From Halomicrobium mukohataei DSM 12286 (GTDB lineage: Archaea > Halobacteriota > Halobacteria > Halobacteriales > Haloarculaceae), in NCBI RefSeq assembly GCF_000023965.1, contig NC_013202.1:360001-392000 (forward strand): 32,000 nt of DNA, written 5' to 3'. Positions within the stretch are counted from its first letter, which is position 1; each line of letters starts with the position of its first letter. The position numbers and the translations under genes are program-made. The notes beneath the pieces are model-generated. The model ran no database searches. It worked only from the letters and a program-made list of their open reading frames with translations, and had not been told where the DNA came from. Shown in pieces: positions 15,863 through 26,925 of this stretch.

Positions 15863-16129
15863 ATGGAGACCGACGAGGCCCAGGCCGCCGAGATGACCGT
15901 CGAGCCGGGCCGGACCGTCGGTGGCCCGGAGAACGTCCACGCCGACAGCGACCAGTGGTGCTACGTCGCCGCGGGCACGGGCGTCGCGACCGTCGACGGC
16001 GCGGACAATCGAATCGAGGCCGGCGACCTGCTCCTGATCGAGGCCGGCGAAGCCCACGCGATCGAGAACGACGGCGACGAGCCGCTGCGGACGGTCAACG
16101 TCTACACCCCGCCCCGGTCCGATCGGTGA
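15863..16129 (+). CDS. Cupin domain protein
   Basis: Start taken at METDEAQ (ATG 15863). ...DQWCYVAAGTGVATVDG...IEAGDLLLIEAGEAHAIENDGDEPLRTVNVYTPP fits the cupin beta-barrel motifs. Confidence 0.75.
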   Translation: METDEAQAAEMTVEPGRTVGGPENVHADSDQWCYVAAGTGVATVDGADNRIEAGDLLLIEAGEAHAIENDGDEPLRTVNVYTPPRSDR

Positions 16130-16156
16130 GCCACCGGTCGTTCCTCGACCGGCGGT

Positions 16157-16183
16157 GTTCAGATAAGAGATCGAGAGTGGCGG
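16157..16183 (+). repeat. Left terminal inverted repeat candidate of the island
   Basis: A 9-nt perfect core GTTCAGATA plus ATCG-N-GAG-(N)-GCGG matches the reverse complement of 18236..18263 (about 20 matched positions with one 3-nt indel). Confidence 0.45.
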
Positions 16184-16318
16184 AAGTGAAGCACCGAAAG
16201 CCCTCTCGGTGCTCGACTACTCCAGGAGCCCAACTGTACGAGGGCTTTCGGCATCTCAATCCCAGCAGTCGCTGCTAAACGAAACACTACCATTGTCGAC
16301 CCCAGAACAGATTACTAA

Positions 16319-16516
16319 ATGAAAAACAGCCTAAATATGGAGCGGAGGAAGTACCTCGGTGCAATAGCTGTTGGGACTGGTATTGCAGGGCTCATCTACA
16401 GTGTGAATGGGATAGCCGAAGATTTTGACATAGAGGAATATATCCCATCCTCTTCAACAGTACAGAGAAAGAGAGCGCAATCCCAACGGCGTCGTTTAAA
16501 CGAACAAGAGTGGTAG
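16319..16516 (+). CDS. Small ORF with Tat-like signal (possibly the 5' half of a frameshifted gene)
   Basis: MKNSLNMERRKYLGAIAVGTGIAGL has an RRKYL twin-arginine-like motif and a hydrophobic stretch. Low GC. It overlaps the next ORF 16510..16707, which is in another frame. Confidence 0.3.
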   Translation: MKNSLNMERRKYLGAIAVGTGIAGLIYSVNGIAEDFDIEEYIPSSSTVQRKRAQSQRRRLNEQEW

Positions 16517-16697
16517 CGTTTACACAGGAACTCAACCTCGGACAAACCTTGGCACCTGGAAAAGAGCGGACCGAAGAACTCGTGACAGTAGACGACCTGA
16601 CAGTTGATGGCTGCTTCCCCCCGAATACGTATCAATTCAGATCTCAGCAAATATTTAATGATACTTCTGTTTCGTGGACGTGGAAGGTAGCTATTGA

Positions 16698-16868
16698 TCA
16701 AATATAAACGCTGATCCGTAGCACATTGTTGATTTCACGATGAGGCTCGAACAGCGCGTTTGAGAGCGTCCCGTCAGAACGGCAGCGAAGACAGATCACA
16801 CTGTTACGCCAACGAACCTGTTGCAGCAGATCCGGTGCGACCGATTCCGATCCAAACACATCTAGAGA
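16698..16868 (-). pseudogene. IS1595-family transposase N-terminal remnant
   Basis: Within ORF 16698..17000, SLDVFGSESVAPDLLQQVRWRNSVICLRCRSDGTLSN matches, from memory, the N-terminal zinc-ribbon region of haloarchaeal IS1595-type transposases (pattern FGSE...L..VRWRDG..CPRC.SD). The CPRC box has degenerated to CLRC, and only about 40 residues remain. Confidence 0.5.
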
Positions 16869-16996
16869 ATCATTCCAGTCGGGCACCGCTGCCGCGGTGT
16901 CTTTGTCCTCGTCGACACCGCAGCTGCCGCTCAGTAGTATCAGCAATCTCTTACGAAAGAGCGTCGATTCAATAGTAACTCGCGCTACGTCTCGAA

Positions 16997-17812
16997 TCAA
17001 TCTGCACCAGTCTCGGCTCCATTCTCCGGGTCACTATTCAGTGTATGAATGCCCTGCAGAAGTCTGCCACTAAAGTACAACACTGGAGATACCAAGAAAA
17101 GCAGGACAACTCCCTGAAGCGATCCTGCCCGGACTGGATTCGCAGCACCTATTGATAGGACTTGGAGCAGACAAATTCCGAGGCCGAGCGTGGCCGTCGG
17201 AAGTGAGGGGACCCTAGAGGAGGTCCCGATATCTGATTGCGTGCGACCGAGGTGGTACAGCGGGATCGCTGCCCACAGACAGATTGCGGCTATAACTGAT
17301 GTCTCAGCGAGTGGCTGCAACGAAGTATTAATACTCCCCGCCATTTCAACGACTGCACCCGCTGGAACGGAAACTGTGTCCAGAGCCTGCCATAAGTAAT
17401 ACACGTGCGGACTGATTGCGATCCCGATCGCTCCAACGATAGACCACTCTATCTGTTTGTTGCTTACCCGTCCGAGCGGGTAAGCTAATGCAACGGCTAT
17501 ACTCGCGAACGCCCACGAAAGACTCCCTATACTCCTCGGGTCGGACCCGAGTTCCCCAAATACTATGCTACCAATCGGTTGCAGTGCGAGACCCATCGAA
17601 CCAGCACCCAAGACTGTCACGATCACGATCCAGTGGATCTTCTCATGGGGAATAACCATTCGAACACTCCCCAGTATACAGTAAGCGATACCGAGGTGCA
17701 GACCAATCGCGACTAACCAACTCTGCTGTTGTCCTGTAGTAGCTCCCAAAGACGCAAAAGCAATAGAAAAAGCTCCGACCAGAGTCAGTCTACCCCCATT
17801 ATTGCCCATCAT
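16997..17812 (-). CDS. Polytopic membrane protein, unknown function (low-GC passenger gene)
   Basis: 271-aa ORF with about 7-8 hydrophobic segments. Its GC content is visibly far below the flanks. No motif recognised. Confidence 0.7.
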   Translation of the reverse strand: MMGNNGGRLTLVGAFSIAFASLGATTGQQQSWLVAIGLHLGIAYCILGSVRMVIPHEKIHWIVIVTVLGAGSMGLALQPIGSIVFGELGSDPRSIGSLSWAFASIAVALAYPLGRVSNKQIEWSIVGAIGIAISPHVYYLWQALDTVSVPAGAVVEMAGSINTSLQPLAETSVIAAICLWAAIPLYHLGRTQSDIGTSSRVPSLPTATLGLGICLLQVLSIGAANPVRAGSLQGVVLLFLVSPVLYFSGRLLQGIHTLNSDPENGAETGAD

Positions 17813-17851
17813 AAATATAGTTAAATAACTCCGAATTGTAAAAGGTGATGT

Positions 17852-18216
17852 TCAGACTAGCTGATTCCCTGCGAGGCTGAAGGATCTGAGCCAGTCGTCA
17901 GCGGTGTCTGGATCGACGACAGCGGACAGCCAATACTGCTCGTCATCGATTTGGATCACTGTTTCGTCAACTGCGACCTGATCCGGAGACCGACCAGACT
18001 CTGGCTGTAGCTCGGCCTTGTGAACCCAGTTATGAACGGTGGATCGAGCACGATCGACACCAAATATCTCAAGAACCGAAACAGTAGTCAGAAGGGATAA
18101 TTCAGCAAGGTATAGCTAAATACTGAGCTTCATCAAAATCGTGGTGTCGCTTCTCGTTCAACAAACTCTCAGTCGATCTGGTCGATATTACCGCTGAGGC
18201 GTGTGTTTTCGGGCAT
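17852..18216 (-). pseudogene. IS6-family transposase, decayed N-terminal fragment
   Basis: Reverse-strand reading: MPENTRLSGNIDQID*EFVEREATPR, a frameshift, then MKLSI*LYLAELSLLTTVSVLEIFGVDRARSTVHNWVHKAELQPESGRSPDQVAVDETVIQIDDEQYWLSAVVDPDT. This matches the N-terminus of haloarchaeal IS6 transposases. It has 2 in-frame stops and 1 frameshift, and homology is lost after about 17890, so the DDE catalytic part is missing. Confidence 0.75.
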
Positions 18217-18317: not shown

Positions 18318-19760
18318 ATGACAGATCCGTTCGTCGCGATCGGTGGCGACGCGGCCGGCCTGAGCGCCGCCAGCAAGTGCAAGCGCGAGCAGCCAGAGCG
18401 GGACGTGATCGTCTTCGAGAAGGGGTCGTGGGTGTCCTATTCGCACTGCGGGATGCCATACTTCGTGAAGGGAGAGGTCGACCGGCTGGACGATCTACTG
18501 TCGCTGTCGCCAGCGGAGATCCGGGAGCGGGGGATCGACCTTCGCCGGGGGCACGAGGTCGTGGCGATCGACAGCGACGCACGCGTCCTCACCGTCGAGA
18601 CGAGCGCGGGCGACCGTCTCGAACAGCCCTACGGCGACCTCCTGATCGGGACCGGCGCGCGTGCGGTCACGACGCCGATCGAGGGGAGCGACCTCGCGGG
18701 GGTTCACACGATGCACGGGCTGGACTCGGCCGCGGCCGTCCGCGCTCACCTGCTCGATCCGGCGGTCGACGCCGTCGCAGACGTGGGCGGCGAGGAGTTC
18801 GTCGACCGCGAGCTGGTCGAGCGCCACGCCGCGTTCGAGCCGCCAGAGACCGTGGCGATCGTCGGCGGCGGCTACGTCGGCGTCGAGATGGCGGAGGCGT
18901 TCAGCGCCCACGGGCTGGACGTTCACCTCTTCCAGCGTGGCGAGCACGTCCTTCCGCCCTTCGGCGAAGCGGTCGCCGAGGTCGTCGAGGGGGAGCTCGC
19001 CGCCGAGGGCGTCACGCTCCACCTCGGCGAGGAGGTCCAGCGCCTCGACGGCGACGACGGCCGAGTCGAGCGCCTCGTCTGCGCCGGCGGCGCGTCGCTG
19101 GCGGTCGATCTGGCGCTCGTGGGCATCGGGATCCGTCCCAACACGGACCTCCTCGCGGACACGCCGATCGAGACCGGCGTCGCCGACGCCGTCGCGGTCG
19201 ACGACTACGGCCGGACGAACGTCGACGGCGTCTACGCGGCGGGCGACTGTGCGACGATGCGCCACGCGGTCACCGGCGAGCGCGACTGGGTGCCGCTCGG
19301 CCTGACCGCGAATCGGGCGGGGCGAGCGATCGGCGCGACCGTCGCTGGCGACCCGACGCCCGTGGGCGACATCGCGGGGACCGCCGTCGTCAAGGCCTTC
19401 GAGCAGGAGTGTGGCCGGACCGGCCTCGTCGATCACGAGGCGGCCAGCGACGCCGGCTTCGATCCGGTCAGCGAGACGATCACCGCCGGCTCGCGGTCGG
19501 GCTACTACCCCGGCGGGGCCGAGACGACGGTGACGCTGATCGCCGACCGGGACAGCGGCCGTCTGCTGGGCGGGACTATCGTCGGCACCGATCGCGCGGC
19601 GATCCGGATCGACATCGTCGCGATGGCGCTGGAACAGGACGCGACTGTGGGAGAGCTAGAGCGGTCCGACCTGGCCTACGCGCCGCCGTTCTCGCCCGTC
19701 TGGGACCCCGTCCTGACGGCCGCGAAGGTGCTCGGCTCGTCGGTCCAAGAGCGCTACTGA
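18318..19760 (+). CDS. FAD-dependent pyridine nucleotide-disulfide oxidoreductase (CoA-disulfide reductase / NADH oxidase family)
   Basis: Start at ATG 18318 (MTDPFVAIGGDAAGLSAA). Single redox Cys motif SYSHCGMPY. Second dinucleotide fold IVGGGYVGVEMAEAF, then YAAGDCA. Confidence 0.85.
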   Translation: MTDPFVAIGGDAAGLSAASKCKREQPERDVIVFEKGSWVSYSHCGMPYFVKGEVDRLDDLLSLSPAEIRERGIDLRRGHEVVAIDSDARVLTVETSAGDRLEQPYGDLLIGTGARAVTTPIEGSDLAGVHTMHGLDSAAAVRAHLLDPAVDAVADVGGEEFVDRELVERHAAFEPPETVAIVGGGYVGVEMAEAFSAHGLDVHLFQRGEHVLPPFGEAVAEVVEGELAAEGVTLHLGEEVQRLDGDDGRVERLVCAGGASLAVDLALVGIGIRPNTDLLADTPIETGVADAVAVDDYGRTNVDGVYAAGDCATMRHAVTGERDWVPLGLTANRAGRAIGATVAGDPTPVGDIAGTAVVKAFEQECGRTGLVDHEAASDAGFDPVSETITAGSRSGYYPGGAETTVTLIADRDSGRLLGGTIVGTDRAAIRIDIVAMALEQDATVGELERSDLAYAPPFSPVWDPVLTAAKVLGSSVQERY

Positions 19761-20269
19761 CCGAGCACGCGGGCCGACTCGAACCGATCGTCGGTCAGGT
19801 AGACCGCGTCGTCGTCGACCGCGACGGCGACCGCGTCGAGCGCGTCGCCGGCACAGGGACCGTGCGTACACGTCCCTTCGCCGCCGGAGAACTGTGCGCC
19901 GTGTTTGTGACAGACGAGGTCGTCGCCGCGGACGATCGCGCCGGTCCCCGGATCGAGCGGGACCTCCGGTCGGTGGGGACAGGAGTTGCGCCAGGCGACG
20001 ACCGCGTCGTCGATTCGCCGCAAGATGCAGTCGACGCCGTGGGACGGGCCGCGGGCCTCGAACCGAACGGTCGAGTCCGTCGGGACCGCGTCGAGGTCGA
20101 CGATCCGCTTGGGGTCGTCTCCGGCCACCGGGCCGTCGTCTGACGCGCTCTCACCGAGGTTGAATCGGACGGTGGCATCGCCGGCCGAGAGAGCACACTC
20201 GCCGTCCGAGAACAGCGCCGTCTCGGTCTCGTCGTCGTGCTCGACCGTCACGCGGAACCGGTCGCTCAT
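19754..20269 (-). CDS. Rieske [2Fe-2S] domain protein
   Basis: Start taken at ATG 20269 (MSDRFRVTVEHDDE). CPHR...CHKHG plus CTHGPCAG match Rieske ligand boxes. The upstream part of the listed ORF (to 20539) is Ser-rich antisense of a + strand acidic ORF. 7-nt convergent overlap with the preceding gene. Confidence 0.8.
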   Translation of the reverse strand: MSDRFRVTVEHDDETETALFSDGECALSAGDATVRFNLGESASDDGPVAGDDPKRIVDLDAVPTDSTVRFEARGPSHGVDCILRRIDDAVVAWRNSCPHRPEVPLDPGTGAIVRGDDLVCHKHGAQFSGGEGTCTHGPCAGDALDAVAVAVDDDAVYLTDDRFESARVLGQ

Positions 20270-20282
20270 CGCCCACACTCGA

Positions 20283-20296
20283 TTCGGCGAGCCTAA
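20283..20296. promoter_or_regulatory. Dyad operator candidate TTCGGC-GA-GCCTAA
   Basis: 13 nt upstream of the Rieske ATG and 61 nt upstream of the small acidic ORF. Member of the 8-copy TTAGGC-N2-GCCTAA family. Confidence 0.5.
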
Positions 20297-20357
20297 AAAA
20301 TTGCCGATCCGCGGGAGCGCCGCAACGGTGTAGTGTCGTCGGGTCGGACGATTACGT

Positions 20358-20522
20358 ATGGACTCCGAAGACGTCGCCGTCGACGTGGAAGTCGAAGTGG
20401 AACTGGACACGGCCGAACTCGAAGCCGAGATCGAGGACGCGACCGAGTACGAGGCGACCCTCGAAGGCGACGGCATCGAGATCGAACTGGAAGCGGCAGT
20501 CGAGTTCACCGACGAGGACTGA
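20358..20522 (+). CDS. 54-aa extremely acidic mini-protein (not in ORF track)
   Basis: ATG 20358 to TGA 20522: MDSEDVAVDVEVEVELDTAELEAEIEDATEYEATLEGDGIEIELEAAVEFTDED. Nearly every codon ends in G/C. The antisense frame gives an implausible Ser-rich peptide. Confidence 0.45.
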   Translation: MDSEDVAVDVEVEVELDTAELEAEIEDATEYEATLEGDGIEIELEAAVEFTDED

Positions 20523-20596
20523 CCGCCAGAGCGAGACACCCGCTCGGTCAGCGTGGGGCCCGTCAGACGATACCTGTCGTCGGCACCCGCGCCGTG

Positions 20597-20974
20597 TCAC
20601 TGGACCGGGACGCTCTCCTCGCCCTCCAGCAGGAGGGCGTCGAGCCGGTCGGCGACGATGGGACTGACCGTGTCGACGACCGCGCGGGCCTCTCGCTCTG
20701 GCGACTCCAGTTCGAGCACCTCCTCGAAGAACGCCGACAGCGTCCGGTAGGTGTCGTACAGCTCGGTCGCTCGCTCGCGCCCGCGATCGGTCAGCGTGAC
20801 GCCCTCGTACGGTTCGTAGTCGACGAGTCCGTCGTCCGCGAGGCGCTGGAGCATCTCCGTGGTCGCCGACGGAGAGCGACCCATCGCCCGTGCCACGGTG
20901 CCCGGCTCGACCGGCGATCCGTCGGTCCGTTCTCGATCGTAGACGACGACCAGGTACTGAGCGACGCGCTCCAT
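20597..20974 (-). CDS. Short DtxR/SirR-family transcriptional regulator (HTH plus dimerisation domain only)
   Basis: Start set at ATG 20974 (MERVAQYLVVVYDRE...). GTVARAMGRSPSATTEMLQRLADDGLVDYEPYEGVTLTDRGRERATELYDTYRTLSAFFEEVL parallels the DtxR winged HTH and following helix. The listed N-terminal extension to 21073 is Arg-rich and overlaps a better small ORF. Confidence 0.8.
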   Translation of the reverse strand: MERVAQYLVVVYDRERTDGSPVEPGTVARAMGRSPSATTEMLQRLADDGLVDYEPYEGVTLTDRGRERATELYDTYRTLSAFFEEVLELESPEREARAVVDTVSPIVADRLDALLLEGEESVPVQ

Positions 20975-20979
20975 CGGGC

Positions 20980-21141
20980 TCAGCGGCGCACGTCGACGAC
21001 GAGGTCCGTCGCGATCCACCCCTCCGTGTTGTCCGACTCGATGAAGGTGCGCGACCCGGGACAGGTCTCGCACACGTCGATCGACGGGCGGTCTGTCGCC
21101 GGCTCGCCCGCGCGGTCGTCGGGCGCAGTCGTCGTTGCCAT
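20980..21141 (-). CDS. 53-aa CxxC small protein (not in ORF track), first gene of the regulator operon
   Basis: ATG 21141 to TGA 20982..20980: MATTTAPDDRAGEPATDRPSIDVCETCPGSRTFIESDNTEGWIATDLVVDVRR. Acidic and GC3-biased. Its stop is 5 nt before the regulator ATG. Confidence 0.55.
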   Translation of the reverse strand: MATTTAPDDRAGEPATDRPSIDVCETCPGSRTFIESDNTEGWIATDLVVDVRR

Positions 21142-21150
21142 ACCCGTATT

Positions 21151-21164
21151 TTAGGCACGCCTAA
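21151..21164. promoter_or_regulatory. Perfect dyad operator candidate TTAGGC-AC-GCCTAA
   Basis: 9 nt upstream of the small CxxC ORF / DtxR-like operon. Flanked by T and A runs (TATTTTAGGCACGCCTAAAATTAAA). Confidence 0.6.
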
Positions 21165-21228
21165 AATTAAAGCTTCGGGTGATCGCCGCCGCCGGCAGGC
21201 GAGAGTGGCGTCGCTGTTCGACGTTTGT

Positions 21229-21242
21229 TTAGCTGCGCCTAA
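21229..21242. promoter_or_regulatory. Dyad operator candidate TTAGCT-GC-GCCTAA
   Basis: Lies between the dpsA stop (21270) and the regulator-operon promoter, 78 nt from the 21151 box. Confidence 0.4.
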
Positions 21243-21269
21243 AAGAGTGGGGTGTCGGTCGCCGAACGC

Positions 21270-21818
21270 TTACTGCATCGCGCTCTCGGTGACGAGCGTG
21301 TCGTCTTCGAGGTAGTGTTCGATGTGGTGGACCGCGTCCTCCAGCTCGACCAGCTGCTCGCGGAGCATCTGTGCGCTGGCGTGGTCGCCGAGTCCCTCGG
21401 TGAGCTCGATGTGGCTCCGGGCGGACTCGATGATCTCGCCGTACACGTCTACGTCGTTGGCCAGCGAGGTGCGGATGTCGTACACGTCCTCGTCCTCGGG
21501 CTCGACGGTCGCCTCGGATTCCAGCGTCGCGGCGCTGGCGTGCGGGACACCGCCCAGCGCCTGGACGCGCTCTGCGAGTTCGTCGGCGGCCGCTTCGGCC
21601 TCTTCTGCGGCCTCGCCGAGGAACAGATGCAGGTCGCGGAACTCGGCACCCTCGACGTTCCAGTGGTGCTTTCGGAGCTGGTGGTACAGCACGTAGACGT
21701 TCGCGAGGTCGGCGTTGAGCGCGTCGACGATCTGCTCGACTTTCTCCTGTTCGAGTCGGAGTGCTTCGCTGGCTTCGACGGTACCGGCCTGCTTCAGGGT
21801 CGACTGTTGCTGACTCAT
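21270..21818 (-). CDS. dpsA: Dps-type ferritin (DNA protection during starvation protein)
   Basis: Start at ATG 21818 (MSQQQSTLKQAGTVEASEALRLEQEKVEQIVDALNADLANVYVLYHQLRKHHWNVEGAEFRDLHLFLGE). This closely resembles the halobacterial DpsA N-terminus and ferroxidase motif as I remember it. Confidence 0.9.
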   Translation of the reverse strand: MSQQQSTLKQAGTVEASEALRLEQEKVEQIVDALNADLANVYVLYHQLRKHHWNVEGAEFRDLHLFLGEAAEEAEAAADELAERVQALGGVPHASAATLESEATVEPEDEDVYDIRTSLANDVDVYGEIIESARSHIELTEGLGDHASAQMLREQLVELEDAVHHIEHYLEDDTLVTESAMQ

Positions 21819-21871
21819 ACTCGATCGTTCGTCCCCGACCCACTTCAAACTTTTCAAAATTTTTATATTTT

Positions 21872-21885
21872 TTCGTACCGCCTAA
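21872..21885. promoter_or_regulatory. Dyad operator candidate TTCGTA-CC-GCCTAA next to the dpsA TATA-like region
   Basis: 53 nt upstream of the dpsA ATG. It abuts the strikingly AT-rich stretch 21845..21875 (reverse strand AAAAAATATAAAAATTTTGAAAAG). Confidence 0.45.
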
Positions 21886-21908
21886 ACCGGGCGACGCGTC
21901 CGACGGCA

Positions 21909-22070
21909 TCACTCCTCGTCGCGCTCTTTGAGCCACTCGTCCAGGAGGTCGCGGATCGCCGCCTCGCGGTTGTCGCGGTGCTCGGCGAAGGCCTTCTCGT
22001 CGATCGCGTCGAGCAGCTCTTCGTCCAGTTCGAGCTCCACGGCTTCCAGATCCAGGTACGCCTCGTCCAT
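21909..22070 (-). CDS. 53-aa ribbon-helix-helix (CopG-like) mini-protein
   Basis: Start taken at ATG 22070: MDEAYLDLEAVELELDEELLDAIDEKAFAEHRDNREAAIRDLLDEWLKERDEE, a strand-helix-helix pattern. The listed upstream extension to 22241 is Arg/Cys-rich and unlikely. Confidence 0.5.
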   Translation of the reverse strand: MDEAYLDLEAVELELDEELLDAIDEKAFAEHRDNREAAIRDLLDEWLKERDEE

Positions 22071-22203
22071 CGGGTGGGAGCGACGACCCCCGCAGATAAA
22101 TAGCCTCGTCAGACGACCGTCTGGCGTTCGTGTGACGCGACGCCGGCCACACCGCCCCTCGGCGGTCGGAACGGTTTCGGCATCGGAGTGCATACGGTAA
22201 CAT

Positions 22204-22611
22204 ATGTCACATAGTGTCGACCGATCAGAGCTGACAGACACCGAACGGGCGGCACTGCACCGCCTGCAACTGGGTGTCGAACACGTCCACCGAGGGTACG
22301 GGTCGCTGCTGGCCTGTCATCACAGCATCGGCCACGGGATGGACCACTTCGAGGCCGCCCGCGAACTGCTCTCTGAGGCGGGCCACGAGGCGTACGCCGA
22401 GGCACTGAGAGAGGAGATCCTTCCGGCGGGGTTCGTCGACGACCGGTGGACGTACGAACTCGTCGACGCGGCCCGGACCGGGTTCGTCGACGACGTAGCG
22501 ACGCTCGAAGCGGCGATCCGGGCTGACCTCGCCGACGGCGAACAACACGTCAGCGAGCGACGGCTACAGCGCCGCTGGCGAAGGCGAGCTGCGGGGCGAG
22601 ACGGAGAGTAG
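22204..22611 (+). CDS. Hypothetical protein with His-rich N-terminal segment
   Basis: 135-aa ORF, GC3-biased. HRLQLGVEHVHRGYGSLLACHHSIGHGMDHF contains 7 His and 1 Cys within 31 residues. No family recognised. Confidence 0.6.
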   Translation: MSHSVDRSELTDTERAALHRLQLGVEHVHRGYGSLLACHHSIGHGMDHFEAARELLSEAGHEAYAEALREEILPAGFVDDRWTYELVDAARTGFVDDVATLEAAIRADLADGEQHVSERRLQRRWRRRAAGRDGE

Positions 22612-22622
22612 CGACGACGGCG

Positions 22623-23351
22623 TCACTCGGTGAGGCTCGGGTGGGTCTCCGGTGGCTCCGGATGGGGGTCGGCGAGCGTCTCTCGCAGTCGCGCCCGAGC
22701 CCGTTCTTCCCGCCGACGGCGTTCGTCGGCGTCGATCTCCTCACACCCCGGCGGCAGGTCGCGCCCGCGGTCGGTGAAATAGCCCTCGGGGACGACCCAG
22801 TCGTGGTAAAACGGCGCGTCGTCGTCGGTCAACAGCGTCACGGCGACCTCGGCCCCGTGGCCGGCACAGACGACGGCCTGGTGGGGTTTCTCGGCCAGCC
22901 GACCGGCCGCGTAGAGGCCGTCGACGCCGGTCCGCCCGTGCTCGTCCGTGTCGACGAAGGTCTTGCCCCGGTCGATCAGGCCGACGCCGTCGATCTCGCT
23001 CAGATAGCTCGTCTCGTTTTTCGTCGCCGCGATCACGGAGTCGCTCGTGTACCGCTCTCCGGCGTCGGTCTCGACGGTGAAGCCATCGGACCGGTGAGTG
23101 ACGGTCTCGACGGTCGCCAGCCGCCGCTCGGCCCCCGCCCGCTGGGCCTGTTCGCCCAGCAGATCGAGGAACTGGCGGGCGTCGATCCCGGCCGGAAAGC
23201 CGGGGACGTTCTCCAGGTGAGCGTTACGCCGGAGGATCGAGCCGCCGGCATCGAGCACGAGCGTCTGGAAGTCGGCGCGGGCGGTGAAGACGCTGGCCGA
23301 CAGGCCGGCGACGCCGCCGCCGACGACCACTACGTCGTAGCGTTCGGGCAC
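22623..23351 (-). CDS. Short thioredoxin-reductase-like FAD oxidoreductase
   Basis: MPERYDVVVVGGGVAGLSASVF (GxGxxG FAD fold) and C-terminal GLYAAGRLA...QAVVCAGHGAEVA. At 242 aa there is no second dinucleotide-binding GxGxxG and no CxxC. Charged C-terminal tail. Confidence 0.8.
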   Translation of the reverse strand: MPERYDVVVVGGGVAGLSASVFTARADFQTLVLDAGGSILRRNAHLENVPGFPAGIDARQFLDLLGEQAQRAGAERRLATVETVTHRSDGFTVETDAGERYTSDSVIAATKNETSYLSEIDGVGLIDRGKTFVDTDEHGRTGVDGLYAAGRLAEKPHQAVVCAGHGAEVAVTLLTDDDAPFYHDWVVPEGYFTDRGRDLPPGCEEIDADERRRREERARARLRETLADPHPEPPETHPSLTE

Positions 23352-23441
23352 GTGTCTGGGTCGCGTTCGGAGCGGGTATAGCAGCGTCGAATCGTTCGGT
23401 CGGCCGTGGAACGTCTCGGTCGGACACCGCCGATCGACACG

Positions 23442-24659
23442 TCAGCGCGTGACGATCTCGGCGACTCGCTGGCGGTCGAAGAGCCGTTCGCCCTCGTGGA
23501 TCTCCGGATAGTGTTCGCCGTCGGTGTAGGCCGGCCACTCGCCGAAGATCTCGGGATACAGTTGCTTCGCGCCCATCTCGATCTGGAAGAGGTTCATGAT
23601 CGGCCCCTGGTAGCGCATCCCCGCGGGGTAGACGCGGTCGTTCTCGACCGCCGAGAGCCGGCTGCCGGAGGCGCTGTCTTCGAGCCGCGTGCGCGTGTCG
23701 GTGATGCTGTAGTTCGGCGTCATCCCCCAGAGGTGGAGGAACACGTCCGGATCGGCTTCTAGCATCGTCTCGTAGTCGACGGTCCCCCAGAGGCCGCCCC
23801 AGTCCTGGTCGGCGAAGGCGTCGTTCGCACCGAGCGGGCGCGTGTCGGCAAGCCAGTAGCCGGGCTCGTTGAGGTGGTACGTCCAGAAGGTCTCGCCGTC
23901 GCCCGAGAGGGTCGCACGCACCGCGGTCGGCCGGTCCTCGACGGGCGGGAGCTGTGACTGGATCCGCTCGACGAGATCGGCGTGGACGGCGGCCAGCGCC
24001 TCGTAGCGTTCGCGCTCTCGAAACACGTCGGCGACCGCGCCGAACAGCTCCCAGAGGTCGTAGTACTGGTAGTCGTCGTACCCCTCGGGCGGCTGGTCGT
24101 GGGTCCCGCTGTAGAAGTTCCCGAACCACGGGCCCAGCTGTGTCGCGACCTCGTCGACGTCGTCTGCGCCCCAGTTGTCCTGTGTCGTGACCCACGCCGG
24201 ATCGGTCAGGTGTACGTCGGCGTCGTGGGTGTACAGCCGTTCTTTCGAGAAGCCGTCACTGAGTGGGTCCGACAGTCGCTCCCAGTCCAGCGAGACGCCG
24301 TCGAGATGGTGGTAGTAGTGGTTCATCGTCGGCCCGGACATCTCGGGGACGTAGACGCTCTGGACCGCGTCGCCGTGACCCAGCGCGACGGCCATATCGA
24401 GGTACTGTGGGTAGACGGTAAACACGGTCTCGGGGACGGCGTCGAACGACACCGTCCCGGCCGGCGACAGCGTGGCCGTGTGACCGGCGTCGGTCGTCGA
24501 CTCCGTCTGTGTCCGAGGCCGGGCCGTGTCGTCGGGGGTCGATCCGTCGCTTTCGTCTGCCTCCGTCGCGTCGCTGCCCGCACAGCCCGCGAGAGCCGTC
24601 CCGGCGGCGATCGAACTCGCGACGAACCGTCGACGTGTCGAGGAGCGGTCGTCTGCCAT
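23442..24659 (-). CDS. ABC transporter substrate-binding lipoprotein (iron-chelate/siderophore type)
   Basis: MADDRSSTRRRFVASSIAAGTALAGC (Tat motif plus lipobox). Paralogous to 25738..26925 (shared ...VSFDAVPET..., ...LFDRQRVAEIV...). Divergent from the FecCD-type permease. Confidence 0.8.
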   Translation of the reverse strand: MADDRSSTRRRFVASSIAAGTALAGCAGSDATEADESDGSTPDDTARPRTQTESTTDAGHTATLSPAGTVSFDAVPETVFTVYPQYLDMAVALGHGDAVQSVYVPEMSGPTMNHYYHHLDGVSLDWERLSDPLSDGFSKERLYTHDADVHLTDPAWVTTQDNWGADDVDEVATQLGPWFGNFYSGTHDQPPEGYDDYQYYDLWELFGAVADVFRERERYEALAAVHADLVERIQSQLPPVEDRPTAVRATLSGDGETFWTYHLNEPGYWLADTRPLGANDAFADQDWGGLWGTVDYETMLEADPDVFLHLWGMTPNYSITDTRTRLEDSASGSRLSAVENDRVYPAGMRYQGPIMNLFQIEMGAKQLYPEIFGEWPAYTDGEHYPEIHEGERLFDRQRVAEIVTR

Positions 24660-24664
24660 TACTT

Positions 24665-24678
24665 TTCGGCTTGCCTAA
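24665..24678. promoter_or_regulatory. Dyad operator candidate TTCGGC-TT-GCCTAA
   Basis: 5 nt upstream of the binding-protein ATG (24659). First of three boxes in the 101-nt divergent spacer. Confidence 0.5.
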
Positions 24679-24700
24679 AACAGCAAATGCCTTACGGTTT

Positions 24701-24714
24701 TTAGGCGAGCCGAA
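24701..24714. promoter_or_regulatory. Dyad operator candidate TTAGGC-GA-GCCGAA
   Basis: Centre of the divergent spacer, flanked by TTTT and ATAAA. Confidence 0.5.
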
Positions 24715-24739
24715 TAAATCGGAACTGATACAAGTGATG

Positions 24740-24753
24740 TTAGGGACACCTAA
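24740..24753. promoter_or_regulatory. Dyad operator candidate TTAGGG-AC-ACCTAA
   Basis: 7 nt upstream of the permease ATG 24761. It would lie inside the ORF if the alternative in-frame ATG 24737 is used. Confidence 0.4.
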
Positions 24754-24760
24754 AACAGAT

Positions 24761-25696
24761 ATGGCCGGGACCCACCCAACCGACACGCCCACCGAGGTGG
24801 GCCACCAGCGCAGTTGGCTCACCGGCCGTCTCGCGGCCTTCTGTCTCGCCAGCGCGGCGATCACAGTGTTCGCGGGGCTGCTACAGGTGAGCTTCGGCTC
24901 GTACTCGATGACGATCGCCGAGGCCTGGCGCTCGGTGTTCGACCCCTCGATCGTCTTCGACCCCGCCGTCTGGAACATCCGCCTGCCCCGCGTGCTCGTC
25001 GCCGTCGTCACCGGCGCGACGCTTGACGTCTCGGGTGCCATCTTTCAGGCGGTGGCCCGCAACGAACTCGCCAGCCCCTACATCCTGGGCGTCAGCTCCG
25101 GTGCGGGGCTGGCCGTCCTGCTGACGCTGGTCGTGTTCAGCGGCCTCACACCGTTCCTGCCGCTGATCGCGGCGGCCGGCGGGACCGTGGCGTTCGCGCT
25201 CGTCTACGCGATCGCCTGGAAAGGGGGGACCAGCCCGGTCCGGCTGGTACTTGCCGGCGTCATCGTCGGCACCGTCTTCCAGTCGCTCCAGACCGGCGTG
25301 TTCTTCTTCGCGGACGACCTCGTGGTCGTCCAGTCGGCGATCGCCTGGACGACCGGCTCGCTGACCGGCACCGACTGGGAGCAGGTGCGGCTGTCGATCG
25401 TCCCGGCGACGTTCGCGATCGTGCTCGCGCAGGCCGCCCGCTTCGCCGACAACCTCGTCGCGATGCGAGACGGCCAGCTGTACGACTGGGGCCCGCCCCG
25501 CGAGGTCGTCACCGAGCAGCTCCTCGCAGACGTGTTCGGCGTCGAGGCCCGCATCCAGCACGAACCGGAACTCCAGATCCTCCCCAGCGGGCTCTCTCGG
25601 AATGACCTAGCATCGATATTTCCGCGGCTTAATTTCTCAGATCTGGGGATTTATCCCCTGAATCGCTCTCATTCCGGCGTCGAACACACCAGTTAG
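24761..25696 (+). pseudogene. In-frame chimera: N-terminal two-thirds of a FecCD-type permease fused to the C-terminal tail of an iron-chelate ABC ATPase
   Basis: Residues 1 to about 222 are permease-like (RLPRVLVAVVTGATLDVSGAIFQAVARNELASPYILGVSSGAGLAV...). From about nt 25427 the same frame reads QAARFADNLVAMRDGQLYDWGPPREVVTEQLLADVFGVEARIQHEPELQILP, typical of FepC/FhuC C-termini. There is no Walker A/B or LSGGQ. The tail after about 25580 is lower GC and probably read-through. Confidence 0.65.
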
Positions 25697-25717
25697 ATTC
25701 GCAAACCTTTACTACTT

Positions 25718-25731
25718 TTAGGCTAGCCTAA
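25718..25731. promoter_or_regulatory. Perfect dyad operator candidate TTAGGC-TA-GCCTAA
   Basis: 6 nt upstream of the second binding-protein ATG (25738). Context CTTTTAGGCTAGCCTAAAAATTG. Confidence 0.6.
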
Positions 25732-25737
25732 AAATTG

Positions 25738-26925
25738 ATGACAGACGAATCACGCCGATCGCAGACACGACGGACCGTGCTGAAGACCGGGGCGACACTG
25801 AGCGTGGCCGCACTCGCCGGCTGCACCGAGTCGACCAGCGGTGGAGACGCTGACGAGAGCGCATCGACCACGACGGACGCGCCGGCCGACGCCACGACGA
25901 CCACGGACGCGGACGCCGAGACGACCGCCGACACCAGCTACTCGGTCTCGATGGAGCCGGTCGGGACCGTCGAGTTCGACGAAGTGCCGGAGACCTGGGT
26001 CGCCAACAACGGTAGCTGGGCCGACATGGGGATCGCGCTGGGCCAGCAGCCCCCCGAGGGCGTCTGGCTGCCCGGACGCTACCACACGCAGTACTACGAC
26101 GACATTCCCGGCGTCAGCGTCGACACAGACGAGATGACCGCGCTGTATCAGGACAGCGTCAGCAAAGAGCTGTTCTACACGCTGGATGGGGACGTACACG
26201 TCATCGATCCCAACTTCCTGCTAAATCGGTTCAAGGGCTGGGACCAGATCGATATCGACGAAGTCACCGACAACGTCGCGCCGTTCTTCGGCAACAGCAT
26301 CTTCTCCGGGGGCTACACCTGGCACGAGGACTACCAGTACTACAGCCTGTACGAGGCCTTCGAGAAGCTCGCGGCCGTGTTCCAGCAGCGGGACCGCTTC
26401 GAGGCATTCAGCGCGCTCCACGACGACTTTCAGTCCTCGATCGACGACGTCGTCCCGCCGGAGGGCGAACGGCCCGAAGTCGCCATTATGTGGGCGGGCA
26501 GCGACGAACCAACGGAGTTCTCGCCGTATCTCGTCAGTCGGGGAACGAGCTTCAAGCAGTGGCGCGACCTCGGCGTCCGCGACGCGCTGGCCGAAACCGA
26601 CGTGGAGGACTTCCACGAGAGCCGTGGCCGGATCGACTTCGAGACGCTGTTGAAGATCGATCCCGAGCACATCATGTTCCGCGGCCAGGAAGCAAAGAGC
26701 CGCGAGGCGTTCGAGGACACCATCCTCGCCTACATGGAGAACCACGAGGTTGCCAGCCAGCTCACTGCCGTCGAGAACGGCGACGTGTACCGCGGTGGTC
26801 CGCTGTACCAGGGTCCGATCACGAACCTCGTGCTCACCGAGCGAGCGGCCCACCAGGTCTACGACATCGACGAACAGCTGTTCGACCGCCAGCGCGTCGC
26901 GGACATCGTCAACGGCGAGTTCTGA
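25738..26925 (+). CDS. ABC transporter substrate-binding lipoprotein (iron-chelate/siderophore type), paralog of 23442..24659
   Basis: MTDESRRSQTRRTVLKTGATLSVAALAGC (Tat motif plus lipobox), Thr/Asp-rich linker, C-terminal ...LFDRQRVADIVNGEF. The listed start 25735 is a TTG one codon upstream. Confidence 0.8.
   Translation: MTDESRRSQTRRTVLKTGATLSVAALAGCTESTSGGDADESASTTTDAPADATTTTDADAETTADTSYSVSMEPVGTVEFDEVPETWVANNGSWADMGIALGQQPPEGVWLPGRYHTQYYDDIPGVSVDTDEMTALYQDSVSKELFYTLDGDVHVIDPNFLLNRFKGWDQIDIDEVTDNVAPFFGNSIFSGGYTWHEDYQYYSLYEAFEKLAAVFQQRDRFEAFSALHDDFQSSIDDVVPPEGERPEVAIMWAGSDEPTEFSPYLVSRGTSFKQWRDLGVRDALAETDVEDFHESRGRIDFETLLKIDPEHIMFRGQEAKSREAFEDTILAYMENHEVASQLTAVENGDVYRGGPLYQGPITNLVLTERAAHQVYDIDEQLFDRQRVADIVNGEF

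What the first reader, a model, noticed from the sequence alone, without database searches (positions are those of the whole stretch)
20283..25731. Eight-copy TTAGGC-N2-GCCTAA dyad marks a compact iron regulon
I count eight copies of a 14-bp dyad. Two are perfect: 21151 TTAGGCACGCCTAA and 25718 TTAGGCTAGCCTAA. Six have 1-2 mismatches: 20283 TTCGGCGAGCCTAA, 21229 TTAGCTGCGCCTAA, 21872 TTCGTACCGCCTAA, 24665 TTCGGCTTGCCTAA, 24701 TTAGGCGAGCCGAA, 24740 TTAGGGACACCTAA. Most extend into T/A runs (TTTTAGGC..GCCTAAAA). All eight lie in intergenic DNA within 5.5 kb, and I found no full copy elsewhere in the 32 kb. Five sit 5-13 nt upstream of a start codon: Rieske 20269, CxxC mini-ORF 21141, binding protein 24659, permease 24761, binding protein 25738. 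One is 53 nt upstream of dpsA beside an AT-rich TATA-like tract. Three are packed into the 101-nt divergent binding-protein/permease spacer. The flanked genes are iron-related, and a DtxR-family regulator gene sits in the middle with a perfect box in front of its own operon. AT-rich TTAGG...CCTAA-type dyads are what bacterial DtxR/IdeR repressors bind. A position between TATA and the start codon fits archaeal repression by promoter occlusion.
Basis: partly seen in the sequence, partly recalled or inferred. Interest (0 to 1): 0.75.

Follow-up and report, generated by a model that had tools for sequence, protein, structure and literature searches.

The report
Known haloarchaeal iron-box operators, Halomicrobium locus

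Summary
All eight dyads are at the stated coordinates, all are intergenic, and no other copy lies in the 32 kb. A weight matrix built only from other genera ranks these eight first (scores 32.6 to 12.3, next best 3.2). One correction: the dpsA site has 3 mismatches, not 1-2.

The motif tTTAGG(C/t)nnGCCTAAa equals the published Haloferax volcanii TroR motif, TTTAGGC-NNN-CCTAAAA, which rests on ChIP-seq, RNA-seq and reporter mutagenesis. It is also cited as the "DtxR motif I / ferR regulon signal".

In 79 other haloarchaeal loci it occurs 256 times, against about 35 in shuffles. It usually comes as pairs 36 bp apart that bracket BRE/TATA, with the proximal dyad 4-10 nt before a start codon. It precedes the same gene families: siderophore-type binding proteins, permeases, idr, a small conserved protein and dpsA.

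The window's architecture matches the validated HVO_B0047 promoter.

The neighbouring regulator is the Idr orthologue. In Hfx. volcanii Idr is a TroR target, and it lacks the canonical DtxR metal ligands. It is probably regulated by the box rather than being its main binder.

Repression by occlusion fits seven sites. The dpsA site lies upstream of the TATA box and probably activates. Verdict: already known, low interest.

The parts
20283..20296 (.). Iron-box dyad TTCGGCGAGCCTAA, 13 nt upstream of the Rieske gene ATG (minus strand). The T-run and TATA abut it.
   Evidence: 1 mismatch; PWM score 17.7; conserved in Hmc. katesii, L008 position 10678.
21151..21164 (.). Perfect iron-box dyad TTAGGCACGCCTAA, 9 nt upstream of the small-ORF/idr operon. 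BRE/TATA (CGAAGCTTTAATTT) abuts its distal arm.
   Evidence: PWM 30.1. The same 9-nt geometry precedes the orthologous small ORF in all 15 promoters caught by the gene census (sequences).
21229..21242 (.). Iron-box dyad TTAGCTGCGCCTAA, 78 bp upstream of the 21151 dyad and 27 nt past the dpsA stop codon. Probably an auxiliary operator; its role is unresolved.
   Evidence: 2 mismatches; PWM 17.2; conserved in Hmc. katesii, L008 position 9733, 1 mismatch.
21872..21885 (.). dpsA variant box. On the minus strand it reads TTTAGGCGGTACGAAAAA, 53 nt upstream of the dpsA ATG and upstream of the TATA box. Probably an activating site.
   Evidence: 3 mismatches; PWM 12.3. The same variant, gTTTTAGG(C/T)nnn(A/G)CGAAAAA, sits at about -63 to -70 from the dpsA ATG in all 48 other loci with a dpsA match. 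TroR binds and activates dpsA in Hfx. volcanii.
24665..24678 (.). Proximal dyad of the binding-protein-1 promoter, 5 nt from ATG 24659 (minus strand).
   Evidence: 1 mismatch; PWM 25.0.
24701..24714 (.). Central dyad. It serves as the shared distal operator of the two divergent promoters, 36 bp from the left proximal dyad and 39 bp from the right one.
   Evidence: PWM 23.0. A 36-bp spacing is the norm in other genomes, 67 pairs.
24740..24753 (.). Proximal dyad of the permease promoter, 7 nt from ATG 24761 (plus strand).
   Evidence: 2 mismatches; PWM 21.5.
25718..25731 (.). Perfect dyad TTAGGCTAGCCTAA, 6 nt upstream of the binding-protein-2 ATG 25738. A BRE/TATA-like tract (GATTCGCAAACCTTTACTAC) lies just upstream.
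   Evidence: PWM 32.6. The downstream protein is 60% identical to the TroR target HVO_B0047.
20597..20974 (-). idr: a DtxR-family regulator of 125 aa without an SH3 domain. It is the orthologue of Hfx. Idr (HVO_0538), a regulon member, and lacks the canonical metal ligands.
   Evidence: Pfam Fe_dep_repress 6.1e-14; Fe_dep_repr_C 26.2 bits, below the 27-bit cut-off. Synteny; ligand mapping.
20980..21141 (-). Conserved 53-aa protein that forms an apparent operon with idr (5-nt gap). It is the likely counterpart of the 'hyp.' gene beside dpsA and idr in the Hfx. volcanii TroR map (my inference). The CxxC motif is not conserved.
   Evidence: Orthologues found in 37 other loci. In the 15 caught by the gene census the dyad lies within 20 nt of the start, at 9 nt in the promoters printed. 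No Pfam hit.
21270..21818 (-). dpsA, a ferritin-like iron-storage protein.
   Evidence: Pfam Ferritin 1e-30; 65-73% identical to dpsA genes in other haloarchaeal loci.
19754..20269 (-). Rieske [2Fe-2S] protein gene preceded by a dyad. A Halomicrobium-specific regulon member.
   Evidence: Pfam Rieske 2.9e-8. Adjacent to idr only in Halomicrobium.
23442..24659 (-). Siderophore-type ABC substrate-binding protein 1.
   Evidence: Pfam Peripla_BP_2; 32% identical to HVO_B0047. This family is the commonest dyad-adjacent gene, 38 cases.
24761..25696 (+). FecCD permease remnant fused in frame to the C-terminus of a FhuC-like ATPase. Probably a deletion pseudogene.
   Evidence: FecCD profile positions 2-197 of 311 only. 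Matches residues 95-299 of a 423-aa homologue. The tail matches FhuC residues 209-253.
25738..26925 (+). Siderophore-type ABC substrate-binding protein 2, a close homologue of HVO_B0047.
   Evidence: Pfam Peripla_BP_2 2.5e-14; 60% identity over the full length to HVO_B0047.

Best explanation
The eight dyads are operators of the haloarchaeal iron box. This is the TroR motif of Haloferax volcanii, also cited as 'DtxR motif I / ferR regulon signal'. A dimeric, iron-loaded DtxR-family regulator binds tTTAGG(C/t)nnGCCTAAa.

At the uptake-type promoters (both binding proteins, the permease remnant, the small-ORF/idr operon and the Rieske gene) a proximal dyad lies between the TATA box and the start codon. 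These transcripts are presumably leaderless. At the divergent promoter pair a shared distal dyad lies on the other side of BRE/TATA. Bound regulator would then block TBP/TFB or RNA polymerase when iron is sufficient, and the genes would be de-repressed under iron starvation.

At dpsA a conserved variant box (TTTAGGCnnnACGAAAAA) lies upstream of the TATA box. It most likely mediates iron-dependent activation of the storage gene.

The regulator encoded in the cluster is the Idr orthologue. It is itself under box control. The principal binder is more likely (about 55-60%) an orthologue of TroR encoded outside the window.

Shown here: sequence identity to the published motif, conservation, geometry and target families. 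Inferred: who binds, the sign of regulation, and leaderless transcription.
For: - Motif identity. The published TroR motif from ChIP-seq and MEME is TTTAGGC-NNN-CCTAAAANAN, with tandem copies and reporter mutagenesis. A matrix from 196 sites in other genera gives tTTAGG(C/t)nnGCCTAAa.
- Statistics. The window has 7 sites at up to 2 mismatches against 0.22 expected. The eight sites are the top eight matrix scores, followed by a wide gap.
- Conservation. In 79 loci (1.47 Mb) there are 256 sites, 63 of them perfect, against 29-40 in block shuffles. Neighbouring sites are 36 bp apart in 67 pairs.
- Geometry. The dyad end lies 0-14 nt from a start codon for 79 of 205 adjacent genes. Among those within 20 nt the modes are 4-5 nt and 9-10 nt. 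The consensus of 33 paired promoters is distal dyad, aTCGAAAc (BRE), tTtTAaTt (TATA), proximal dyad, 4-5 nt, ATG.
- Validated promoter. P(HVO_B0047) of Hfx. volcanii on pHV3 reads TTAGGCTCGCCTAA, 22 nt, TTAGGGAGGCCTAA, AAGAC, ATG. This is the same architecture. Window binding protein 2 is 60% identical to HVO_B0047.
- Target families next to dyads elsewhere: Peripla_BP_2 (38), idr (23), the small ORF (15), dps (11), FecCD (5), IucA/IucC, NifU, and DUF5059 with a halocyanin domain. These match the published TroR and motif-I regulons.
- dpsA. The variant box is conserved in all 48 other dpsA loci examined. TroR binds and activates dpsA.
- idr as a target. TroR-HA binds the idr promoter only when iron is present, and idr is de-repressed in the troR deletion. 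Dyads precede idr or its operon in Halorubrum, Haloferax and Halomicrobium.
Against: - There is no binding or expression data for Halomicrobium.
- I could not retrieve a TroR (HVO_0863) sequence, so the presence of a TroR orthologue in this genome is not shown.
- In Hbt. salinarum, Idr1 and Idr2 were reported at iron-uptake genes. An Idr1 regulon member is orthologous to a motif-I gene of Hfx. volcanii. Idr-type proteins may therefore also use this box.
- The abstract of the TroR paper places the motif about 100 nt upstream of start codons. My census finds most proximal dyads at 4-10 nt. I checked this on only one validated promoter.
- Transcription start sites are not mapped here, so leaderless transcription and the TATA assignments are inferred from consensus.
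Confidence: 0.88

Rival explanations
1. The locally encoded Idr protein (20597..20974) is the main or only binder of the dyads. It would autoregulate its own operon and control the neighbouring genes as a self-contained local regulon.
For: - The regulator gene sits inside the dyad cluster with a perfect box before its operon.
- Across 79 loci Idr-family genes are strongly linked to dyads.
- The Idr helix-turn-helix region (RSPSATTEMLQRL) is highly conserved, as expected for a conserved target sequence.
- Hbt. salinarum Idr1 and Idr2 were found by ChIP-chip at iron-uptake genes.
Against: - In Hfx. volcanii the orthologous idr promoter is bound by TroR-HA when iron is present. idr expression depends on troR. 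The published network has only two edges, TroR to idr and SirR to sirR, so no Idr self-binding was found.
- The motif was derived from TroR ChIP-seq peaks, 32 of 32.
- The Idr clade lacks the canonical metal ligands: H79 to Y, E83 to S, C102 to M or R, E105 to A or V, H106 to G or D. The window protein has no His or Cys. That makes iron-dependent co-repression by the usual route unlikely.
Confidence: 0.3
2. The dyads are part of the basal promoter (T/A-rich TATA-like tracts) or short hairpin and terminator signals, with no specific regulator.
For: Most copies run into T/A tracts and abut or overlap the presumed TATA box. They are palindromes and could in principle form hairpins.
Against: - The invariant positions are the GG and CC of TTAGG/CCTAA, not the A/T tracts.
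- The motif occurs only before iron-related gene families, and nowhere else in 32 kb that contains many other promoters.
- Mutating the two motifs abolishes TroR- and iron-dependent repression in Hfx. volcanii.
- Seven of the eight copies lie in promoter regions upstream of start codons. The exception, 21229, lies just past the dpsA stop.
- No Rfam family matches the window.
Confidence: 0.02
3. The copies are remnants of a small mobile repeat (MITE-like) that spread locally.
For: There are eight similar copies within 5.5 kb. A low-GC island and a deletion-scarred transporter gene lie nearby.
Against: - The similarity covers only about 19 nt, with no extended flanks or target-site duplications.
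- The same positions relative to orthologous genes are conserved across many genera.
Confidence: 0.01

Closest known systems
TroR operator and regulon of Haloferax volcanii (Martinez Pastor et al., Nucleic Acids Res 2024; PMC10783522)
   Same: - Same sequence: TTTAGGC-NNN-CCTAAAA against tTTAGGCnnGCCTAAa.
- Same tandem arrangement around the TATA box. I checked this on pHV3: 36-bp spacing, with the proximal dyad 5 nt from the ATG.
- Same targets: dpsA, idr, Fe-siderophore ABC binding proteins and permeases.
- Window binding protein 2 is 60% identical to HVO_B0047.
   Different: - A different genus, with no experimental data.
- idr is transcribed here with the small ORF. In Haloferax it follows a DUF7260 gene.
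- A Rieske gene is an additional target.
- Three dyads serve two divergent promoters.
- A TroR orthologue was not located in this genome.
'DtxR motif I / ferR regulon signal' from comparative genomics of archaeal DtxR regulons (Leyn & Rodionov, J Bacteriol 2015), as cited in PMC11349517
   Same: A conserved DtxR-type motif before the fhu/phu binding-protein paralogues and a DUF5059/halocyanin gene in haloarchaea. My census finds the same families.
   Different: I could not read the original paper, which is not held. I therefore could not check its motif logo, which paralogue it assigns, or whether Halomicrobium was in its genome set. I believe from memory that it was.
Bacterial DtxR/IdeR operator (19-bp TTAGGTTAGCCTAACCTAA; consensus quoted from my own knowledge)
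   Same: It has TTAGG/CCTAA pentamer arms and is recognised by a DtxR-family helix-turn-helix. Repression is iron-dependent and works by promoter occlusion.
   Different: The pentamers are 9 bp apart in the bacterial box and 4 bp apart here. No match to the 19-mer at up to 3 mismatches in the window. The transcription machinery is archaeal (TBP/TFB).
Halobacterium salinarum Idr1/Idr2/SirR/TroR network (PMC3074139, PMC5737653)
   Same: DtxR paralogues control siderophore uptake genes in response to iron and regulate one another.
   Different: The motifs proposed there, GTT-N8,9-AAC and WCGAS[C/A]TCGW, are unrelated to this dyad.
SirR/MntR-type manganese box TTTwGAnnnnTCwAAA (PMC10783522)
   Same: An A/T-flanked palindrome for a DtxR paralogue in the same organisms.
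   Different: The core differs, and there is no copy in the window at up to 1 mismatch.

Membership tests
Haloarchaeal iron box (TroR motif / DtxR motif I) | Sequence matches TTTAGGC-N3-CCTAAAA | tested here: met
   Two perfect copies, three with 1 mismatch, two with 2 and one with 3. A matrix from other genera ranks the eight first. Published motif.
Haloarchaeal iron box (TroR motif / DtxR motif I) | Lies in promoters of iron uptake or storage genes | tested here: met
   The flanked genes are Peripla_BP_2 (two), FecCD, Dps, a DtxR-family gene and Rieske. The same families flank dyads in 79 other loci.
Haloarchaeal iron box (TroR motif / DtxR motif I) | Tandem copies bracketing the TATA box, as at the validated HVO_B0047 promoter | tested here: met
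   Window spacings are 36 and 39 bp at 24665/24701/24740. The spacing is 36 bp in 67 pairs elsewhere. pHV3 P(HVO_B0047) has dyads at 18608 and 18644 with the ATG 5 nt downstream.
Haloarchaeal iron box (TroR motif / DtxR motif I) | Orthologous targets carry the site at orthologous positions | tested here: met
   The dpsA variant box is present in all 48 other dpsA loci examined. The dyad lies 9 nt before the small ORF in the orthologous promoters printed. idr is preceded by dyads. Binding protein 2 is 60% identical to HVO_B0047.
Haloarchaeal iron box (TroR motif / DtxR motif I) | Bound by TroR in an iron-dependent manner, with flanked genes responding to iron | not testable with these tools
   This needs ChIP or EMSA and RNA-seq in Halomicrobium. 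It has been shown only for Hfx. volcanii.
Haloarchaeal iron box (TroR motif / DtxR motif I) | A TroR (HVO_0863) orthologue is encoded in the genome | not tested
   No TroR sequence could be obtained. The profile search returned only Idr-family proteins. The Hfx. volcanii chromosome is not in the collections. No second DtxR gene lies in the window.
Bacterial DtxR/IdeR 19-bp operator | 19-bp palindrome TTAGGTTAGCCTAACCTAA | tested here: not met
   0 matches at up to 3 mismatches. The pentamer arms are shared but the spacing differs.
DtxR family of metalloregulators (the protein at 20597..20974) | N-terminal winged-helix DNA-binding domain and dimerisation domain | tested here: met
   Fe_dep_repress 6.1e-14. 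Fe_dep_repr_C scores 26.2 bits, just below the 27-bit cut-off. A profile of the clade matches DtxR, IdeR and MntR structures with E-values from 3e-17 to 1e-7.
DtxR family of metalloregulators (the protein at 20597..20974) | Canonical metal ligands (DtxR H79, E83, H98, C102, E105, H106; MntR H77, E99, E102, H103) | tested here: not met
   The window protein has 0 His and 0 Cys. Across 81 clade members H79 is Y in 81, E83 is S in 72, E105 is A or V, and H106 is G in 75. C102 is M in the clade consensus, and R in the window protein.
Orthologue of Hfx. volcanii Idr (HVO_0538) | Synteny with dpsA and the small ORF, with sequence similarity to Haloferax proteins in that context | tested here: met
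   Eight Haloferax loci have idr, then a dyad, the small ORF and convergent dpsA. They are 52-57% identical to the window protein. The paper's locus map lists hyp., dpsA, idr and DUF. The DUF7260-idr operon was seen in the three Haloferax loci inspected. I did not compare directly with the HVO_0538 sequence.

The most novel reading that the evidence does not exclude
The Idr clade has lost the canonical DtxR metal sites, is itself switched on under iron starvation by the box, and is always linked to a conserved 53-60 aa protein and to dpsA. It may not be a classical iron co-repressed repressor. It could be a second, iron-independent or differently liganded factor, perhaps working with the small protein. 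Such a factor might compete or cooperate with TroR at the same dyads, forming a feed-forward loop that tunes uptake against storage. The dyad at 21229, which faces the 3' end of dpsA, could then drive an iron-regulated antisense transcript.
Probability: 0.12. Interest if true: 0.5.

Novelty: already known. Interest (0 to 1): 0.15.

Why it matters
The value is practical rather than conceptual. The sites give a confident regulon-based annotation of this Halomicrobium locus. The two binding proteins and the permease remnant are ferric-siderophore uptake components. dpsA, idr, the small ORF and a Rieske protein are iron-controlled.

The comparison also sharpens the published picture in three ways:
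- The proximal dyad usually sits 4-10 nt from the start codon, and the pair brackets BRE/TATA with a fixed 36-bp spacing.
- dpsA carries a conserved variant box upstream of its TATA in every dpsA locus examined.
- The Idr clade lacks the canonical metal ligands.

That last point bears on the open question of what Idr senses and whether it shares the box with TroR.

Tried and rejected
- Leyn & Rodionov 2015 (PMC4285986) is not held. Its motif and regulator assignment are known to me only through citing papers and memory.
- The supplements of the TroR paper are not held. HVO_0537 appears in no searchable paper.
- TroR was not found:
  - A recalled C. diphtheriae DtxR sequence, searched by tblastn, found no second DtxR gene in the window. 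In the loci it found only a SirR-like gene with an SH3 domain, in L040.
  - A profile search seeded with the SirR-like and Idr-like sequences returned only Idr-family proteins among its best 120.
  - The Hfx. volcanii chromosome is not in the annotated collections.
  - A neighbour-joining tree of the 80 Idr-like proteins shows that copies not linked to dps tend to group together. Those copies are 51-62% identical to the dps-linked Idr of the same species or genus (three pairs compared). They therefore cannot be TroR, which is reported as at most 33% identical to its paralogues.
- The bacterial 19-bp DtxR box and the SirR/MntR box are both absent from the window.
- No known RNA family or tRNA lies in the window.
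- I rejected the mobile-repeat and hairpin readings. The similarity is limited to about 19 nt and the positions are conserved relative to orthologous genes.
- I rejected the zinc-finger reading of the 'CxxC' ORF, because the second Cys is not conserved.

Full report
**Source.** The window is 100% identical over 20,378 nt to GenBank CP045142.1 (assembly GCA_009217585.1), a 3.09-Mb Halomicrobium replicon. The regulator protein is 98% identical to that of Halomicrobium katesii.

**Observation**
- TTAGGCNNGCCTAA with up to 2 mismatches gives 7 hits in 32 kb, all between 20283 and 25731. Dinucleotide shuffles give 0.22.
- The eighth copy (21872) has 3 mismatches, not 1-2.
- I built a 20-nt weight matrix from sites in 79 loci of other genera, leaving Halomicrobium out. 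It ranks exactly these eight first, with scores from 32.6 down to 12.3. The next best window position scores 3.2. Block shuffles give 0.055 sites above 12.
- The repeat finder returns the same eight as its largest family.
- All copies are intergenic, and the stated distances to start codons are correct (13, 9, 5, 7 and 6 nt, and 53 nt for dpsA).
- Pfam confirms the Rieske, DtxR-family, Dps/ferritin, FecCD and two Peripla_BP_2 genes.

**What it is**
- The motif is already described. In Haloferax volcanii, TroR ChIP-seq peaks yielded TTTAGGC-NNN-CCTAAAANAN, found in 32 of 32 intergenic peaks and often in tandem.
- There, TroR represses siderophore and iron-ABC genes and idr when iron is present, and activates dpsA. 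Mutating both motifs of the HVO_B0047 promoter abolishes iron- and TroR-dependent repression.
- A second paper refers to the same signal as 'DtxR binding motif I / ferR regulon signal' of Leyn & Rodionov 2015. It reports the signal before the fhu/phu binding-protein paralogues and a DUF5059/halocyanin gene.
- My matrix from 196 sites gives tTTAGG(C/t)nnGCCTAAa, the same motif.

**Comparative test**
- A scan of one genome per species with an alignment of the regulator's relatives returned 80 haloarchaeal loci of about 20 kb each.
- In the 79 loci outside Halomicrobium (1.47 Mb) the dyad occurs 256 times at up to 2 mismatches, 63 of them perfect. Shuffles that preserve composition in 100-nt blocks give 29-40.
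- Neighbouring dyads are 36 bp apart in 67 pairs, and 35-37 bp apart in 77.
- For 79 of 205 adjacent genes the dyad ends 0-14 nt before the start codon. Among the genes within 20 nt the modes are 4-5 nt and 9-10 nt.
- The adjacent genes are Peripla_BP_2 binding proteins (38, of which 37 lie within 20 nt), idr (23), the small ORF (15), dps (11) and FecCD (5). Others include IucA/IucC-FhuF, NifU, DUF5059 with a copper-binding domain, DUF7260 and DUF7551/7552.

**Promoter architecture**
- The consensus of 33 paired promoters is tGtTTTAGGctngCCTAAAA-aTCGAAAc-nG-tTtTAaTt-n-TTTAGGctgGCCTAAA-ccnt-ATG. In words: distal dyad, a BRE-like CGAAA, a TATA-like TTTTAAT, proximal dyad, 4-5 nt, start codon.
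- That CGAAA and TTTAWA are the haloarchaeal BRE and TATA consensus, and that most haloarchaeal mRNAs are leaderless, is my own background knowledge.
- I read the validated Hfx. volcanii promoter on plasmid pHV3. It is TTAGGCTCGCCTAA, ATTCCGAAGACGTTTTAACCAT, TTAGGGAGGCCTAA, AAGAC, ATG, with 36-bp spacing.
- In the window's divergent spacer the central dyad (24701) is 36 bp from the proximal dyad of binding protein 1 and 39 bp from that of the permease. It therefore acts as the shared distal operator of two such promoters.
- Binding protein 2 is 60% identical to HVO_B0047 over its full length. Binding protein 1 is 32% identical.
- Single-dyad promoters, including the small-ORF/idr operon and the Rieske gene, have a T-rich TATA tract abutting the dyad.

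**dpsA**
- The weakest site is nonetheless real. All 48 other loci with a dpsA match carry gTTTTAGG(C/T)nnn(A/G)CGAAAAA. It starts about 63-70 nt before the dpsA ATG and is followed by TTGAxAAGTTATAAG.
- The window has GGTTTAGGCGGTACGAAAAAATATAAAAATTTTGAAAAGTTTGAAG.
- This is one perfect half-site plus a conserved variant half-site, placed upstream of the TATA box.
- TroR binds and activates dpsA in Hfx. volcanii. Activation, not occlusion, is therefore the likely role. This is inferred.

**Who binds**
- In most genera the gene order is idr, a dyad, the small ORF, then convergent dpsA. Eight Haloferax species show this order, and their proteins are 52-57% identical to the window regulator.
- In the three Haloferax loci I inspected, a dyad pair precedes a DUF7260-idr operon. 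This matches the paper's locus map, which lists hyp., dpsA, idr and DUF.
- The window regulator is therefore the Idr (HVO_0538) orthologue. In Hfx. volcanii idr is repressed by TroR. TroR-HA occupies the idr promoter only when iron is present. The published network has no Idr self-edge.
- The window Idr has no His and no Cys. Across 81 clade members the DtxR ligand positions are H79 to Y (81 of 81), E83 to S (72), C102 to M (R in the window), E105 to A or V, and H106 to G (75).
- I therefore favour a TroR orthologue encoded elsewhere as the main binder. I could not obtain a TroR sequence or show that one exists in this genome.
- Idr-type proteins may also use the box. Hbt. salinarum Idr1 and Idr2 were found by ChIP at iron-uptake genes.

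**Rejected alternatives**
- Basal promoter element: rejected. The invariant positions are GG and CC, and the motif is absent from all other promoters in the window.
- Hairpin or known RNA: rejected. Rfam gives no match, and seven of the eight sites lie in promoter regions upstream of start codons.
- Mobile repeat: rejected. The similarity covers about 19 nt only, and the positions are orthologous across genera.
- The bacterial 19-bp DtxR box and the SirR/MntR box are both absent.

**Verdict.** The motif, its tandem arrangement, its targets and its mechanism are all published. This locus is another instance of a known system. The corrections concern the likely regulator, the sign of regulation at dpsA, one mismatch count, the 'CxxC' label and the damaged permease gene.

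Noticed in passing
window 24761-25696 (+): The 'permease' gene is a remnant. FecCD homology covers only profile positions 2-197 of 311, equal to residues 95-299 of a 423-aa homologue. It then continues in frame into the C-terminal roughly 45 residues of a FhuC-like ABC ATPase, followed by an unrelated lower-GC tail. This looks like an in-frame deletion of about 1 kb joining permease and ATPase genes. The transporter cluster is absent from the idr neighbourhood of Hmc. katesii.
   Followed up: partly
window 20597-20974 (-) and L009-L087 near position 10001: The Idr clade of DtxR-family proteins lacks the canonical metal ligands: H79 to Y in 81 of 81, E83 to S, C102 to M or R, E105 to A or V, H106 to G. 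The window protein has no His or Cys at all. What it senses, if anything, is open.
   Followed up: partly
window 20980-21141 (-); orthologues in 37 other loci, e.g. L010 10487-10651: The small ORF belongs to a conserved 53-60 aa family with no Pfam hit. Its motif is P.(I/V).VCE..PG..VF.ES.N(T/S)(D/E)GWI(A/S).D..V(D/E)V.R. In the 15 orthologous promoters caught by the gene census the iron-box dyad lies within 20 nt of its start, at 9 nt in those printed. The second Cys of 'CxxC' is not conserved (Haloferax has VCKGGPG), so it is not a classical zinc finger.
   Followed up: partly
window 21819-21890; dpsA upstream regions of 48 other loci: About 60 nt of the dpsA promoter is almost invariant across haloarchaeal genera: TTTTAGGYnnnRCGAAAAA, 10-12 nt, TTGAWAAGTTATAAG. 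This is far more conserved than typical intergenic DNA.
   Followed up: partly
window 21229-21242: This dyad has no gene start downstream on either strand within the usual 4-13 nt. It lies 78 bp from the 21151 dyad and 27 nt past the dpsA stop, facing into dpsA on the plus strand. It is conserved in Hmc. katesii. It could be an auxiliary operator or the promoter of an antisense RNA.
   Followed up: no
79 related loci; L088 18608/18644: Neighbouring dyads are spaced at a fixed 36 bp start to start (67 pairs at 36 bp, 77 at 35-37 bp), with BRE/TATA between them. The window's right-hand pair is 39 bp apart, an unusual spacing.
   Followed up: yes
literature versus L088 18590-18700: The abstract of the TroR paper places the motif about 100 nt upstream of start codons. 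At the validated HVO_B0047 promoter and in my census the proximal dyad ends 4-10 nt before the start codon.
   Followed up: partly
window 16001-18000: A low-GC island (0.52-0.53 against about 0.68 around it). Its ORFs have no Pfam hits apart from a weak IS1595 zinc-ribbon match. It is probably foreign or mobile DNA.
   Followed up: no
window 20358-20522 (+): A 54-aa, extremely acidic ORF with periodic E/D-x-E repeats. It is called as a gene in the NCBI record and is 100% identical over the matched stretch in Hmc. katesii. It has no family match, and it lies 61 nt from the 20283 dyad.
   Followed up: no
L046 16288-17210 (Haladaptatus halobius plasmid): A second Idr-like paralogue of 141 aa, with a Cys-rich C-terminal tail (ECPDC...CVYLDC). 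It overlaps by 4 nt a preceding 166-aa ORF that I did not identify, and lies about 700 nt from a dps gene.
   Followed up: no
L040 4182-7864 (Halorubrum sp. CSM-61): A canonical SirR-like regulator with intact His/Glu ligands and an SH3-like tail. It sits next to three ORFs the size of a metal ABC transporter (their roles are my reading of one sequence, not tested). It lies 5 kb from a second Idr-like paralogue that is not linked to dps.
   Followed up: no
window 20524-20549 and 20678-20703: A 26-nt inverted repeat, 88% complementary, with arms 128 nt apart. It spans the gap between the convergent acidic ORF and idr. It may be chance in GC-rich DNA.
   Followed up: no
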